A stretch of DNA of 64,000 nucleotides from Eledone cirrhosa. Taxonomy: Eukaryota. Each line of letters starts with the position of its first letter. Within the stretch, counting starts at the first letter, position 1. A program made the position numbers and the translations under genes. Positions 2,771 through 55,846 of the stretch are shown piece by piece. The DNA lies in the NCBI GenBank assembly GCA_964016885.1, contig OZ024741.1:365056001-365120000 (forward strand), given 5' to 3'. The notes below the pieces were generated by a model. It was not told the DNA's origin. It did not search any database and was given only the letters and a program-made list of their open reading frames with translations.

Positions 2771-2852
2771 ACTTTCCTGATGACGGGATGTTTCTCTACA
2801 CCTTCTTCGGAAGATGTATCTACTCCATTCCAGAAACTAATTAGTTGGAAGT
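2771..2852 (+). ncRNA. Type I hammerhead ribozyme with extended helix II
   Basis: actttc-CTGATGA-c-gggatg...tacaccttc-TTCG-gaagatgta...cattcc-a-GAAAC-taatta-GTT-ggaagt; 6-bp helix I. Confidence 0.8.
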
Positions 2853-3062
2853 GATATTTTAGTAAGTAAGTTAATTTTATAATTTTCTTATCTTACGTCT
2901 CTTATATATATATATATATATATATATATATATATATATATATATATATATATATATATATATATATATATATATAGTGAGTGTGTGTGTGTGTGTGTGT
3001 GTGCGTGTATATATATACATATATTATATATACATATATTATATATATATATATATATATAT

Positions 3063-3254
3063 ATAACGAAGGAGTTGTGGTAAGGAACAAGATGGACCAT
3101 AACGCACCAGAGTACTCAATACTTAGGGTAGTAGAGTGGGTAACAAGAGAAAGTATGGCCCTGACGCAGAGCTCAAGCCGTTACGACGGCTATTTCTGGA
3201 CTGAAATAGCCGTCAACATGGCTTGAGCTCTTCCGTCGGGGCCATACTTTCTCC
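3063..3254 (-). mobile_element. Short hairpin-plus-tail element in (TA)n (family C, copy 1)
   Basis: ~50-bp arms around ~3198 and ~85-nt tail containing GATGGACCATAACGCACCAGAGTACTCAAT; five copies in the window. Confidence 0.85.
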
Positions 3255-3264
3255 TATATATATA

Positions 3265-4765
3265 TAATTGAAAAAGTGGAGAATAACATGGTCAACAGTA
3301 AAAAAGGGGGATTTATTTACAGTCTAACAATTGTTTCACTGATAGAGTTGTCTAAAAATTGATAAACACTGAAAGTAGTACCACACAATTTAAATACATG
3401 TTATTCTCATCATATCCTCAGAGACTGAGAGAAAATATAAATATATGCGTAATCGGCAAATTTACAAATTCAAATTACCACATCAATAATGATATTAATA
3501 ATAAAGATATAGAGAGAAAAAAGGAAGGGGATAGATATAGTAAAGAGAGAAAGGAAGGGAAGAAGAAAGACGAAGGAAAAAGAAAAAGAGATAGAGAAAG
3601 AAGAAGAGGAGAAAATTATTACAGCTAAAAAAACCACAAGTAGAGATATCGTAGAAAAGAGAGAAACATGAAGACGGATAAACAGACGAGTATGATAGAC
3701 AAACACAAGTAGAAATAAGATGAAGAGAAGAAGGTAGAGGGGCAAATAGATGAATAAACGTTAATACATGAATAAATAAATAAATGTAAGAAAAAATAAA
3801 GATAGATGTATAGAAATATATGAGGAAATGAATGAAAACATATATAAAAAATTGATAGATAAATAAATAAGTAAATAAATGAATAAATAAATAAATAAAT
3901 AAATTACATCTAATGTAATATAAAATGGTATAATATGTGGAAAGTGGAGATGGGAATAAATAAATAAATGTGTAAAAAGGTATGGAGAATATTTAAACAT
4001 GTTAAGATTATTGAGAATAGTTTTTGATAATTGTTAAATATATGGATAGATATTAAGTTGAAAATATGATAATGTTGAATATATTTATGTGTGTATTGGT
4101 TATTTCAATAAGTAAATTAACTAGTTTAAGATATATTATATATGATAAAATGACCGTGATGAAATAAGTTTAGGGAGAGAGATGCAAAGATAGAGAGTGA
4201 AAGATAGAAATATATAAAATGAGAAAGTTAATATAAGAGGTTTAGATGCTGTTCTTTGGTAATTATAATGGTGAAGATTCTGCTGATAATGTGATATCAT
4301 AGTAGATCCAAATGGTACAATCAGGGTTATGGAATAGATAAGGTGGAATTAAGATGGTCTAAAGTTCTCGAATTTCGTTGCTGATTTATGCCGACAAAAG
4401 ATAATTCGTTCAATTCTATTGTTAAGAAGAAGTTTGCTGAAATTTAGAATTTGGAAAAGTTCCATATTTCAGAGACTCCAGTGGGACATACCAATTGATC
4501 TCATACTCTATGTTTGCATTCTTGAGTTGCCAGATTTTATTGGCGAGAGTTGTTGTATTCGAGAGATTCTATTACTCCAAGATAAACTTACATATTCGAG
4601 AGATTTTATTACTCCAAGATACACTTACATAGGAATACAAGTGAAATCATAAACTCGTCATCCACGTAAACCTCTTGTTGAATCATACAACGCCGTACGC
4701 TAAAACTATCCATGATAAGACTATTCACAACTCTAATTGGATTACCTATAACGAAATCTTGTTAT
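3265..4765 (-). mobile_element. Decayed Penelope-like element: GIY-YIG remnant, long AT-rich 3' region, terminal hammerhead
   Basis: Minus strand ~4480-4640 reads VYLG...NTTTLANKIWQLKNANIEYEINW, similar to NSTSLAHYIWDLKGAYIPYSLNW in the 23081 ORF. Confidence 0.7.
3320..3427 (-). ncRNA. Type I hammerhead ribozyme with ~75-nt helix II domain
   Basis: cagtct-CTGAGGA-t(atgatgag...ctctatcag)t-GAAAC-aatt-GTT-agactg; perfect 6-bp helix I. Confidence 0.7.
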
Positions 4766-51878: not shown

Positions 51879-53479
51879 ATATATATATATATATATGTAT
51901 ATATATATATATATATATATATATATATATATATATATATATATATATATATATATATATATATATATATATATATATATATATATATATATTCATTTTG
52001 AGGAAATGGAAATATCAATACACTGCTTTATATATTTCCTCAAATATTGATTTTTCAGGACTATAAATATTCTATTTTTAACCTCACCTAAAGACATTAG
52101 GAAATATAAAGATAAATTATTTATATCAAACTAGAGCATTGGTGTGTTGTCACTTCGATTTATTAAAGAAAATATAGTAAATATAGCTTATATATACATA
52201 TATGTACATATTAATACCGAAATCCATAACTGAAAGAATGAATGCATGTAAGCATATAGATAAAATGACACTTAAGTAAAGCAAGTGTATGCATGAAAAT
52301 GACCATTTATGCATATGCATATGTGTATATCTTTATCTTTATCTTTTTCTATATCTACTATCTATCTCTCTCTCTCTCTATATATATATATATACACACA
52401 CACACACACACACACACACACACACATATATATATATATATATATATATATATATATTTAGTAATTGTTTCTACTTTTGGCACAAGGCCAGCAAATCACC
52501 AGTACATTACTGGTACTTTATTTTATCGACCTCGTAATTTATCTTTATAAAACCTTACATTCTTACACACACACACACACAGACACACACACACACACAC
52601 ACACACACACATACACACACACACAGACAAAGACACACACACACACACATATATATATATGTGTGTGTGTGTGTGTGCTATATATATATATAGCAAAGGT
52701 AAAAATACATATACAAATGTATGTACATATACAGATGTATGTAGAAAATTATATGTGATAGTATATAACTGCCAAGTAGTTTCAGAATTAGCTCGATTTG
52801 TTTATATATCATTGGTTTGAAGAAATGGTAGTTGTTTTAGGTCGATAAAAAAGAACCAGTCTAGTACGTGGGTAGATTCTTCCTCTATACCTCTTTCACA
52901 TTTCCATTCTCTTACTCTTTATCTCTCTATGAAAGAAATCTGCTATATTCAGACCAGGAAAGGAAATAGGCATAACCAGGTTTTAAAATAACCTAGAAAC
53001 GCTAGATGTCAATATGGCTCCCCTACGACTTCCCTACGGAGCCATGCATGCCTCCTTTAATGCCTTAATATAAAGTATTTTCGACATGGAAATAGGATAT
53101 ATCTCACCTCACAATTCTTCACAACGCTTTGTAAGCTTAATATTACTTTGTATAAGTTTGGATGTTGTATCTCATATAGTAAACTATTTTAAAGCTTTCT
53201 TCATGGACATTCTCAATCCTTCACACAATACGGCTATCAAGAACTCCATGCACGTTAGTTATATATATATACACACTATCAGAATAATTTGGTTTCTGGA
53301 ATCGAAGCTATTATTGTTGCAGCCTTCCTTCTTATAATTGTTTCTACTTTAGGTACAAGGCCAGCAATTACCCAGTGCATTACTGGTACTTTATTTTATC
53401 GATCCCGTAAGGATGAAAGGCAAAGTCAACCTCAGCGGGAATGAAATGCTTTGTAATGTTATTAACTCATATGATATTA

Positions 53480-54980
53480 ACTCATACGCTACTTGGAATA
53501 AAATACTACAACAAGAAGTAAGTATTCTTTTCCATTCAGAGAGATTATCCATCAACTTTGGGGTAAGCTTGTTTTATTGACTAGCTTGCTGAATTCAGAT
53601 TTTGATTGTGTTAACTTCTTTGCCACATTAACAGTCAGGCATAGAATTTCTGCATACTTCAACCATGGATCCCGATAGTACCTTCTGGTTTAGTTTGGGA
53701 AACAATAATTTATTTGTGTATGTTGTATATTCTGCTCAACATACATGTCCGATACACTTGCAGTGTTGTGCAGAGTTGAAGATTTGTAAAGGAGGCGTAT
53801 TGCACAATATTTTATGTAACTGTGTACAAAATTGTATTGTTCTTCATCACGATTGACTTTGCTTAAATTCAATTTAACCATGATATTTTGAAATTGGATT
53901 GAACACGCCTCCATTTCTTGTATTTCAATTTATTTTTGAAGCCAAGATTGTACCTCATATGTCAGTCGGGATTCACACATTCTTCAATTAACTTTCTTCT
54001 TGTATTCATATTAACGTTGTTGTCGGTTAATACTGTTGTCAGTTCATTAAACTCAGCTGTTATTTTTTATATTTGCAGCTCTAATGAAATTGCTTTGGGA
54101 TTACAAGAAATCATCTGTCCACATACATTTATTCTTTCACATTCTCTATCGCATTTTCGTCTATGCTGAAAAGTGACTCCTTCTTTGCTAACTCACTGTT
54201 GTTGAACACCTCAGTTTTCCTCTCCTTGAATGATATTGTTAGCCCAAAGTATGTGTTGTTAATGATATTGAGCAATTTCTCGGCTTCATATGCTGTGCTA
54301 CAGAACAGTATTACATCACCAGCGAACAGTATCAATTCTCCGTAAAAGTCTATTGTTTATCTGTTCTGTATTTGAACATATATGTGGTTTATTGTATTCA
54401 AACTGAATTCTCCAACTTTCAGGGGACGTTTCATCAATAGCATGTGCTACAACATTCAGTAGATAATCAAAGTAATAATTGAAAAACAAGGGGATTCCTG
54501 TTCGGCTTGTCTCCAACCAACAAATATATCAATCGTAGCCTTCGTACGACTGATAGAAGCTGTGGCACCTTCATACAGCTTCTGCAAGATTGCAATCAAA
54601 TGTTTAGCTTCTGTTCACACTGAGAGCACTTTCAAGAGAATATTTCTTGGAACACGGTTATATGCTGCAGTCAAATCAATGTATATATCCCAATTAATGT
54701 ATCCTTCAATAACATTCTTAATGTATTTCTCAATAACATTCTTAACAACAAATATACCATCAGCAATGGGGGTATTTTGGCGAAACCCATTTTGAGCATC
54801 GACTGTTTCTTTCATATGATTTCTTCGGTCTTCCAATTACAATATTAGCTAGAATCTTGCTCATATTAGCTCTAAAGGATAGGCCTCAACAGTTAGATGC
54901 TAAGTTTCTTATTTCTTTCTTGAACAGAAATGTGATATTTGCATATCACTATTCATGTGGTACAACTGTTAAATTCCATC
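53480..54980 (-). mobile_element. Decayed RTE-like LINE RT
   Basis: QNGFRQN..DGIF, IDLTAAYNRVPR, LFFNYYFDY, ILFAGDVILF. Confidence 0.8.
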
Positions 54981-55559
54981 TCAATGTGAGGAGCACATAT
55001 ACACATTATACACAATTGTGAACAATATTTCGTGATGTATGTCCCCGAAGACTGCGAAAAGTGGACAGCGTTACTTGTGGGAGTCGAACGTACACCGGAA
55101 GTATACCGTATGGCTATTCTACCAATGCACCATCGTGAGGTTGATCCCTTCTTTCCACTTTTAAGCTTTGTTTATCAGTCAGAAATATAAATAAACAATC
55201 TATATTTAGAACCGGTTATCGGGTTACGCATTTTAAAATTTAGCTTAAAGTTAACAGCTTGATGAACGTACGTTTTGAGCCCATGAAGACGGAAAAGATT
55301 AACAGTCTTATCAATAGGCTAAACATGTAAATATACAATCTATTTTTTGAAGTGATGATGATGGTGATGATGTTATAAACGTTCTTACGTCTTGAAACCA
55401 ATGGCAATGCAGAGATAATTCAAACTGAATAAAATACTCTCAAGTCTCACATTATATACCAATTCCTGTTTCTTTCGTTTCAACACACACCAGCATATAT
55501 GTATATATATATATATATATATATATATATATATATATATATATATATATATATATATT

Positions 55560-55846
55560 TGTGCATAGTGGTAGCTATGGTGCTTCCGTAGGCGGTATGC
55601 CAAAATTAGCACTCGATATTCATCAGGGTAGAGTGTAGATATTATAAAGAAAACGAAAAATCAGTGATGCATCTCGACTTAGTTTATTTGCTCCGGACAT
55701 AACACCCGTGTCTGAAAGAACCTGCAGAAGTAGAATCAGCCAGATCCATACAAGGACCATGACTCGAGCTACATGCCGGCGAAACATTTGTAACACGAAA
55801 TAAACTAAGTCCAGATGCATCACTGATTTTTCGTTTTCTTTATAAT
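55560..55846. mobile_element. Foldback-plus-tail element in (TA)n with a hammerhead at 55707-55797 (plus)
   Basis: Arms ~55641-55689/55798-55845; cgtgt-CTGAAAGA-acc-tgca..gtag...ctac-atgc-cggc-GAAAC-attt-GTA-acacg. Confidence 0.75.

What the first reader, a model, noticed from the sequence alone, without database searches (positions are those of the whole stretch)
2771..55797. Hammerheads with long structured helix II insertions (about 45-85 nt)
Seen at 2771-2852 (inner UUCG hairpin), 3320-3427, 10996-11075, 11527-11636, 15265-15344, 40021-40102 and 55707-55797. The core and usually a good helix I are intact, but helix II is a multi-stem domain that differs between families. Established: PLE HHRs are usually described as minimal. 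Inference: standard descriptors would miss these, and the domain could supply tertiary contacts or an RT-binding site.
Basis: partly seen in the sequence, partly recalled or inferred. Interest (0 to 1): 0.75.

Follow-up and report, generated by a model that had tools for sequence, protein, structure and literature searches.

The report
Long-armed hammerheads: pseudoknot or protein dock
These seven motifs are hammerhead (predicted self-cutting) RNAs of abundant jumping repeats, and their second arm is a 37-83-base domain whose pairing is kept by compensating base changes in most families; in short non-coding repeats it likely braces the ribozyme through a pseudoknot, and in protein-coding elements it likely serves as a dock for the element's own protein.

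Summary
All seven sites are real type I hammerheads. Helix II is 49, 77, 50, 83, 37, 49 and 61 nt. One window copy (11527) has a dead core, and one (15265) is a different build. Five clan patterns give about 30,000 genome matches against 112 for reversed controls. The long helix II covaries across sister families and falls into two classes. (1) In F1, F3, F6 and the F5 class, a helix II loop pairs with the strand just 5' of helix I (GAGAA/UUCUC, GGAAA/UUUCC, GAGUU/AACUC; swap test 0/20000). These sit in 470-700-nt non-coding, often tandem, retrozyme-like units. (2) F2 and F7 show no such pseudoknot, carry a conserved irregular loop, and end Hydra-clade Penelope-like elements. F4 is a three-way junction with weak support. 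Cleavage, expression and protein binding are untested, and 5' ends do not cluster at the cut site here. Pseudoknotted hammerheads, retrozymes and about 50-nt helix II in spike-moss elements are published. This scan noted both classes before on other DNA. Verdict: new variant of a known kind.

The parts
2763..2852 (+). F1 hammerhead: pseudoknot 5' strand GAGAA 2763-2767, helix I 2771-2776/2847-2852, core 2777-2783, helix II 2784-2832 (6-bp stem, internal loop with UUCUC 2792-2796, UUCG hairpin), palindromic helix III, predicted cut 2846/2847
2245..2907 (.). F1 insertion: forward arm about 2404-2907 (most of a 522-nt unit, ending in (TA)n) and an inverted 5'-truncated arm about 2245-2404 with a second hammerhead copy that lacks most of the helix I 5' strand
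   Evidence: (I16)
3320..3427 (-). F2 hammerhead, helix II 77 nt (3414-3338), three-helix rod with conserved loops GUAUU/AGAC and GAGU/UAGC (the second is decayed in this copy); predicted cut 3326/3325
3260..4560 (-). F2 host: 3' end of a Hydra-type PLE, with a broken GIY-YIG C-terminus about 930 nt upstream of the hammerhead
   Evidence: (L031)
10989..11075 (+). F3 hammerhead: pseudoknot GGAAA 10989-10993 with UUUCC 11016-11020, helix II 50 nt, predicted cut 11070/11071; family unit 470 nt
11527..11643 (-). F4 hammerhead: helix II 83 nt as a three-way junction; window copy has G8-to-A and a broken first helix I pair (likely dead); a 3-4 bp pseudoknot is possible but not above shuffles
15265..15351 (-). 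F5 hammerhead: long helix III, 2-3 bp helix II stem with a 37-nt domain, 7-bp pseudoknot UAGCCUU 15351-15345 with GAGGUUA 15327-15321; family unit 534-542 nt
40021..40108 (-). F6 hammerhead: pseudoknot GAGUUU 40108-40103 with AAGCUC 40085-40080, helix II 49 nt, predicted cut 40026/40025
55707..55797 (+). F7 hammerhead: core CUGAAAGA (one extra base, fixed in the family), helix II 61 nt with conserved AGAAUC/CGAGCU loop, predicted cut 55792/55793
55559..55848 (.). F7 insertion: forward arm about 55686-55848 and an inverted arm about 55559-55690 that carries the 84-nt tail, whose end matches the leader of a Hydra ORF

Best explanation
These are type I hammerhead motifs, predicted to self-cleave, of Hydra-clade Penelope-like retrotransposons and of short non-coding repeats that are likely copied by them, and their long helix II comes in two conserved builds: one likely braces the ribozyme by a pseudoknot, the other likely binds the element's protein. 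Shown by sequence comparison: a covarying basal stem in the F1/F3/F6, F2 and F7 clans; pairing between a helix II loop and the strand 5' of helix I in F1, F3, F6 and the F5 class; a shared irregular loop and no pseudoknot in F2 and F7; non-coding tandem units for the first group and Hydra ORFs for the second; the same two-ended 3' termini in (TA)n for both. Inferred: the pseudoknot holds helices I and II parallel, replacing the usual loop-loop contact, so that tandem transcripts of the non-coding units are cut to unit length (as dimers through the palindromic helix III, or as monomers for F5), possibly circularise, and are reverse-transcribed in trans from a site downstream of the cut. In the autonomous elements, the RT/endonuclease protein would bind the helix II loop and stand in for the missing contact, as in the protein-assisted Anolis PLE hammerhead.
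For: Abundance against controls: 5783 vs 3, 4085 vs 25, 11114 vs 39, 5927 vs 4, 3996 vs 41. Basal stem: 4.63 of 5 pairs for own partner vs 2.91 swapped, 0/20000, 30 families. F2 clan: 15 of 24 pairs changed on both sides, 84.9% paired vs 76.1% shuffled and 28-43% slid. F7 clan: 6 of 6 basal pairs changed on both sides. Pseudoknot: score 12.37 own vs 10.16 swapped (0/20000), 9.61 shuffled, 8.73 downstream control. It is present in 25 of 30 families, with double changes at 4 of 5 positions. Of 146 copies in which both pentamers could be called (189 examined), 121 are exact complements and 22 more pair with one G-U. Long-helix-III class: 12.9 vs 9.0, 1/20000, n=10. Loop motif: 25/44 (F7 clan), 49/65 (F2 clan), 3/3 (L421 family) vs 0/35, 2/93, 0/9 in pseudoknot clans. 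Units of 470-989 nt have no PLE protein match, and two sister units are 68% identical over 511 nt. Hydra ORFs with RW[K/R], DKT and CxCX5C are linked to long-helix-II hammerheads, and 18 of 18 F7 tails match the L481 ORF leader. Paired 3' ends lie 84-107 nt apart in both groups. Helix III is palindromic in 31 of 33 families. Literature: pseudoknots raise hammerhead rates (PMC3088659); the Anolis PLE hammerhead cleaves only with its protein (PMC11167929).
Against: There are no cleavage or binding data. Copy 5' ends are not enriched at the predicted cut: 0 for F1, F2, F3, F4, F6 and F7, and 1 of 61 for F5 (small sample, biased to copies with the whole motif). Of 33 families, 22 have a mismatch at the first helix II pair instead of G10.1-C11.1, and F7 has a fixed core insertion of a kind reported as low-activity. 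Families are related, so swap tests overstate independence. In the unfitted MAFFT alignment of the F1 clan only 1 of 5 pseudoknot pairs shows a double change, with three rows visibly out of register. The loop motif was defined from the F2 and F7 alignments, so only L421 is out of sample; it is present in 1 of 4 L422-family and 0 of 15 CGAUCG-family sequences. F4 fits neither class. The ORF-upstream test is weak (F7 itself 1 of 67), so autonomous carriers of the pseudoknot build are not excluded. Hammerhead cleavage was dispensable for Anolis PLE insertion in vitro.
Confidence: 0.55

Rival explanations
1. The whole fold is kept mainly as a recognition element for the PLE protein (packaging or RT start); cleavage is weak or dispensable in all families, and the pseudoknot is part of the recognised shape.
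For: Mismatched first helix II pair in 22 of 33 families; fixed core insertion in the young F7 family; no 5' ends at the cut; Anolis insertion works without cleavage.
Against: Core bases are invariant across clans with 53-72% mean column identity. The pseudoknot lies where activity-enhancing helix I-II contacts are known. Units have fixed lengths.
Confidence: 0.25
2. The pseudoknot pairing is a switch: it holds the ribozyme off, or forms between two molecules in the dimer, rather than bracing one molecule.
For: Palindromic helix III in 31 of 33 families implies dimers. In some families the loop strand can also extend the distal hairpin. Covariation cannot tell cis from trans or on from off.
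Against: Strand positions shift together with stem length (Spearman 0.77 on 21 of 25 families, 4 doubtful registers dropped), as an intramolecular brace would need. The monomer-competent long-helix-III class has it too.
Confidence: 0.12
3. Helix II length is tolerated cargo: any stable rod is accepted, and the loops and pseudoknot are incidental.
For: Lengths run continuously from 7 to 116 nt in a random sample. F4 and several long families show neither feature.
Against: Double-sided pseudoknot changes occur within separate sub-clans. Unpaired loop bases are over 90% conserved while the flanking stems change.
Confidence: 0.08

Closest known systems
Hydra-clade PLE hammerheads (Craig et al. 2021, PMC8557442; passages, section 11, supplement parts 2 and 24 read)
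   Same: Type I, short palindromic helix III, near the 3' end of C-terminal-EN elements with RWK, DKT and CxCX5C, inserted in (TA)n, with inverted truncated arms and a tail (F2, F7, L421, L422).
   Different: Listed Hydra helix II segments are about 12-26 nt by my count of File S2; here they are 61-92 nt with conserved internal loops. The tails here are 84-107 nt against 30-40 described.
Metazoan non-LTR retrozymes (Cervera and de la Pena 2020, PMC7229834, passages; Li et al. bioRxiv 10.64898/2026.07.22.740005, parts 1-2 of 5)
   Same: Non-coding units with one type I hammerhead each, from single copies to arrays of 11, likely moved by PLEs (F1, F3, F4, F5, F6).
   Different: Units are 470-845 nt against 170-400 in the 2020 paper (up to 972 in the preprint). 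The hammerhead has a 37-83 nt helix II and, except in F4, a pseudoknot in place of the canonical loop 1-loop 2 contact. Circular RNA is not shown here.
Pseudoknot-braced hammerheads (Perreault et al. 2011, PMC3088659, passages)
   Same: Base pairing between helix I and helix II regions; about 40% of their set, all three types, needed for fast cleavage in a type II example. The F5 class, with its very short stem II, is closest.
   Different: In F1, F3 and F6 the partner is an internal loop in the middle of a 50-nt rod capped by a further hairpin, in dimer-type motifs of an animal repeat. The passages read do not show that layout; their figures and supplements were not seen.
Minimal PLE hammerheads (Cervera and de la Pena 2014, PMC4209133, parts 1-2 of 4) and spike-moss PLE-X hammerheads (Craig File S2)
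   Same: [quoted passage not shown]
   Different: No tertiary contact or conserved loop is described for them in the text read, and the conserved G10.1-C11.1 pair is mostly a mismatch here.

Membership tests
Type I hammerhead ribozyme | Core CUGANGA ... GAAA ... NUH with three helices, helix I open | tested here: met
   6 of 7 window copies parse; F4 only in its family majority; F7 has a one-base core insertion
Type I hammerhead ribozyme | G10.1-C11.1 pair closing helix II | tested here: not met
   G-C in 6 of 33 families, mismatch in 22; a covarying stem follows. U-U is a tolerated variant
Type I hammerhead ribozyme | Self-cleavage at the NUH | not testable with these tools
   No RNA run listed; genomic 5' ends not enriched at the cut
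Hydra-clade PLE (F2, F7) | RT with RWK and DKT, C-terminal GIY-YIG, CxCX5C linker | tested here: met
   By motif in L481 (F7; RWR form), L421 and L422; for the F2 clan only the linker and EN end were seen, in L423 and L485. No tree was built
Hydra-clade PLE (F2, F7) | Hammerhead in the pLTR, (TA)n target, tandem or inverted arms, tail | tested here: met
Non-LTR retrozyme (F1, F3, F4, F5, F6) | Non-coding tandem units with one type I hammerhead each | tested here: met
   F1 522-523, F3 470, F5 534-542, F4 845 (one pair), sister arrays 556 x10 and 484 x2; open frames up to 82 aa; no PLE protein match. F6 period 694 read from one pair of coordinates only
Non-LTR retrozyme (F1, F3, F4, F5, F6) | Canonical loop 1-loop 2 contact with a 4-bp helix II | tested here: not met
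   Replaced by a long helix II with a pseudoknot
Non-LTR retrozyme (F1, F3, F4, F5, F6) | Expressed as circular RNA | not testable with these tools
   No RNA holder listed
Naiad PLE ('HHR_half_core' cases) | N-terminal GIY-YIG; 3' end like Naiad_Ovul | tested here: not met
   Linked ORFs have a C-terminal EN; the Naiad_Ovul 3' end, read by eye, differs; four family motifs gave 0 hits in that supplement

The most novel reading that the evidence does not exclude
One animal genome has solved the hammerhead's helix I-II contact in two ways that track autonomy. Parasitic non-coding units evolved a self-sufficient pseudoknot on an extended helix II. Autonomous Hydra elements turned helix II into a protein-binding arm that makes cleavage depend on their own RT, so the ribozyme works as a sensor of RNP assembly.
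Probability: 0.3. Interest if true: 0.72.

Novelty: new variant of a known kind. Interest (0 to 1): 0.5.

Why it matters
Tens of thousands of hammerheads in one genome escape Rfam and short-spacer descriptors, so counts of animal ribozymes and retrozymes are likely too low. Natural compensatory series (GAGAA, GGAAA, GAAAA, GAGUU, GAGCU) give ready-made tests of a helix I-internal loop pseudoknot. Side-by-side autonomous and non-autonomous carriers make the open question of why PLEs keep hammerheads testable: RNA-only cleavage in one class and protein-assisted cleavage in the other.

Tried and rejected
Within-family alignments (30-38 copies each) are too uniform to test pairing, so sister families were used. 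Naiad origin, suggested by the 'HHR_half_core' note in Craig 2021, was rejected. An early 'Neptune' label from recall was dropped for Hydra. Pseudoknot in the F7 clan: no signal (5133/20000); F2 clan 8.5 vs 8.3 and F4 8.6 vs 8.3 (the F4 bin also caught L421-family sequences). RNAalifold found only the basal stem in the F7 clan and two inner helices in the F2 clan. Pfam gave GIY-YIG for 2 of 6 window frames and nothing for 3 of 3 locus proteins. 5'-end mapping did not reproduce an earlier scan claim of copies starting at the cut (F1 and F2 lists include microsatellite noise). MAFFT could not register the pseudoknot strands across all of clan A, so swap tests were used. Lunse et al. (RNA Biol 14:1499) was not held and may describe long stem II variants; figures and most supplements of the other papers were not seen. 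Eight literature searches listed no paper on this layout; subscription journals are largely missing from the library.
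Full report
Setting. The window lies in a 3.0-Gb, microsatellite-rich animal genome. A cephalopod is my guess from recall and from by-eye likeness of its ORFs to Hydra-1_Obim; no call names it.

Observation. All seven sites are type I hammerheads, here F1-F7 in window order, with helix II of 49, 77, 50, 83, 37, 49 and 61 nt. A descriptor gave 5-6 long-helix-II hits against 0.04-0.12 in shuffles, and Rfam found none of the seven. Each family has 1301-2186 first-look candidates in the genome. Family majorities restore canonical cores for F3 and F4, so the F4 window copy is decayed; the extra core base of F7 is fixed. 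In 800 kb sampled at even steps, 89 hammerheads were found against about 0.9 in shuffles; 23 have helix II of 45 nt or more, 10 of them in one array. Clan patterns gave 5783, 4085, 11114, 5927 and 3996 matches against 3, 25, 39, 4 and 41 for reversed controls (slight overlap is possible).

Helix II is conserved as structure. F1, F3 and F6 belong to one clan (A): a 4-7 bp basal stem, an internal loop and a distal hairpin. Across all 30 representatives at 90% identity, the basal stem pairs 4.63 of 5 with its own partner and 2.91 when swapped (0/20000), and the distal hairpin has a mean z of -3.3. In the F2 clan (30 sequences), 15 of 24 named pairs change on both sides. In the F7 clan (18 sequences), 6 of 6 basal pairs do, but no inner consensus was predicted. 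F4 folds as a three-way junction (z -5.1) with only 3 of 40 pairs changed on both sides among 15 close sequences.

Class 1, pseudoknot. In clan A the 5' side of the internal loop is complementary to a run 10-14 nt upstream of the core, just 5' of helix I: GAGAA/UUCUC (F1), GGAAA/UUUCC (F3), GAGUUU/AAGCUC (F6), and GAAAA/UUUUC, GAGUU/AACUC, GAGCU/AGCUC and GAAGAAU/AUUCUUC in sisters. Own-partner score is 12.37 against 10.16 swapped (0/20000), 9.61 shuffled and 8.73 for the downstream flank, with no family dropped. It is found in 25 of 30; by eye, 4 of the 5 without are 5'-truncated copies. Over 189 copies, both pentamers were called in 146: 121 exact complements, 22 with one G-U, 3 mismatched. 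Changes recur inside separate sub-clans, which reduces but does not remove the relatedness caveat. An unfitted alignment of 14 F1-clan sequences shows only 1 of 5 pseudoknot pairs changed on both sides. F5 and nine other long-helix-III families show the same kind of pairing onto a short helix II (12.9 vs 9.0, 1/20000). These families occur as fixed non-coding units: F1 522-523, F3 470, F5 534-542, sisters 484 and 556 nt. They have no PLE protein match, and F1 and the 556-nt unit are 68% identical over 511 nt. A PLE frame lay upstream of 3 of 186 clan A copies, at scattered distances, and of 0 of 34 F5 copies; this test is weak.

Class 2, conserved loop. The F2 and F7 clans have no pseudoknot signal. 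They share an irregular loop, G-A-[AGU]-U opposite [UGC]-A-G-C, found in 49 of 65 and 25 of 44 sequences (6.6 and 2.3 shuffled), in 3 of 3 of the L421 family, and in 2 of 137 in three pseudoknot clans. It is in 1 of 4 L422-family and 0 of 15 CGAUCG-family sequences. The motif was read from the F2 and F7 alignments, so those counts are circular. These hammerheads belong to protein-coding elements. L421 and L422 are hammerhead-ORF-hammerhead units. L481 has an ORF between inverted F7 copies, and 18 of 18 F7 tails end in the leader of that ORF. The window F2 copy has a GIY-YIG end 930 nt upstream. The ORF motifs match the Hydra clade as defined in PMC8557442 section 11.

Shared machinery (inferred). 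Both classes end in (TA)n at two fixed distances past the predicted cut: F1 56 and 146, F3 91 and 198, F5 175 and 263, F7 53 and 137. Both make inverted truncated arms. This fits copying of the non-coding units by Hydra proteins. F2, F4 and F6 show one main end each.

Against function. No RNA run was listed. Copy 5' ends do not gather at the cut. The first helix II pair is a mismatch in 22 of 33 families.

Mechanism. Most likely (0.55), the pseudoknot aligns helices I and II, as in Perreault 2011, allowing unit-length cutting of retrozyme-like transcripts, mostly as dimers. In Hydra elements the long arm likely docks the protein, as suggested by the protein-assisted Anolis hammerhead. Pairing and context are shown; cleavage, dimer formation, circles and binding are inferred.

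Known and new. PLE hammerheads, retrozymes and pseudoknotted hammerheads are published. Listed Hydra hammerheads are short, but two spike-moss PLE-X motifs have a helix II of about 50 nt. 'Long helix II' in viral motifs means 6-8 bp. Eight searches listed no description of these layouts; Lunse et al. could not be read. The scan has earlier notes on the F1-type pseudoknot, the two-ended insertions and long Hydra arms on other DNA. I reached these readings before those look-ups. One note reports a 51-base arm on a Hydra element in another genome, which I did not test and which could break the autonomy split. Verdict: new variant of a known kind, interest 0.5.

Noticed in passing
window 23081-24652 (-): Broken Hydra-type ORF (RT end and GIY-YIG) directly after a hammerhead with a 32-nt helix II at 24586-24652; a further degenerate minimal motif near 24997 (-).
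   Followed up: partly
window 25211-26669 (-): Fragments of another Hydra-type ORF after a hammerhead with a 26-nt palindromic helix II (26612-26669).
   Followed up: partly
window 20100-20657 (+) and 43074-44004 (-): A Hydra-type GIY-YIG frame, and a different PLE (CX4CXXC linker, Pfam GIY-YIG E 9e-7).
   Followed up: partly
window 7937-7975 (+), 9722-9760 (-), 21112-21156 (-), 41398-41436 (+), 55987-56137: Short-helix-II hammerheads; only 21112-21156 is seen by Rfam (31.7 bits, below threshold). The last two form an inverted pair around a perfect 77-nt palindrome at 56024-56100.
   Followed up: no
L253 (G000:C3:55000001-55010000): Array of 17 copies of a 310-nt unit with a canonical 14-nt helix II hammerhead, in two orientations: a classical retrozyme beside the long-armed ones.
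   Followed up: no
L229, L258, L261, L236: Families with helix II of 99-116 nt forming long rods (z about -8) and helix III ACGAUCGU; neither pseudoknot nor loop motif.
   Followed up: partly
L453-L457, L489: A 989-nt non-coding unit whose 97-nt helix II is a three-way junction with a GGGC(A)/(U)GCCC pseudoknot candidate, the same layout as F4.
   Followed up: partly
window 55600-55640 (-): The F7 tail holds a second CUGAUGA inside a small hairpin, with no GAAA partner seen.
   Followed up: no
clan A, 3' side of the helix II internal loop (e.g. window 11044-11049): The third strand is U-rich opposite GGAAA/GAGAA pseudoknots and A-rich opposite GAGUU ones; a base-triple layer is possible.
   Followed up: no
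L018, L223, L270: An RT unlike the Hydra ones lies 0.4-1.1 kb upstream of an 18-nt helix II hammerhead family (GGUCACAG); clade not determined.
   Followed up: no
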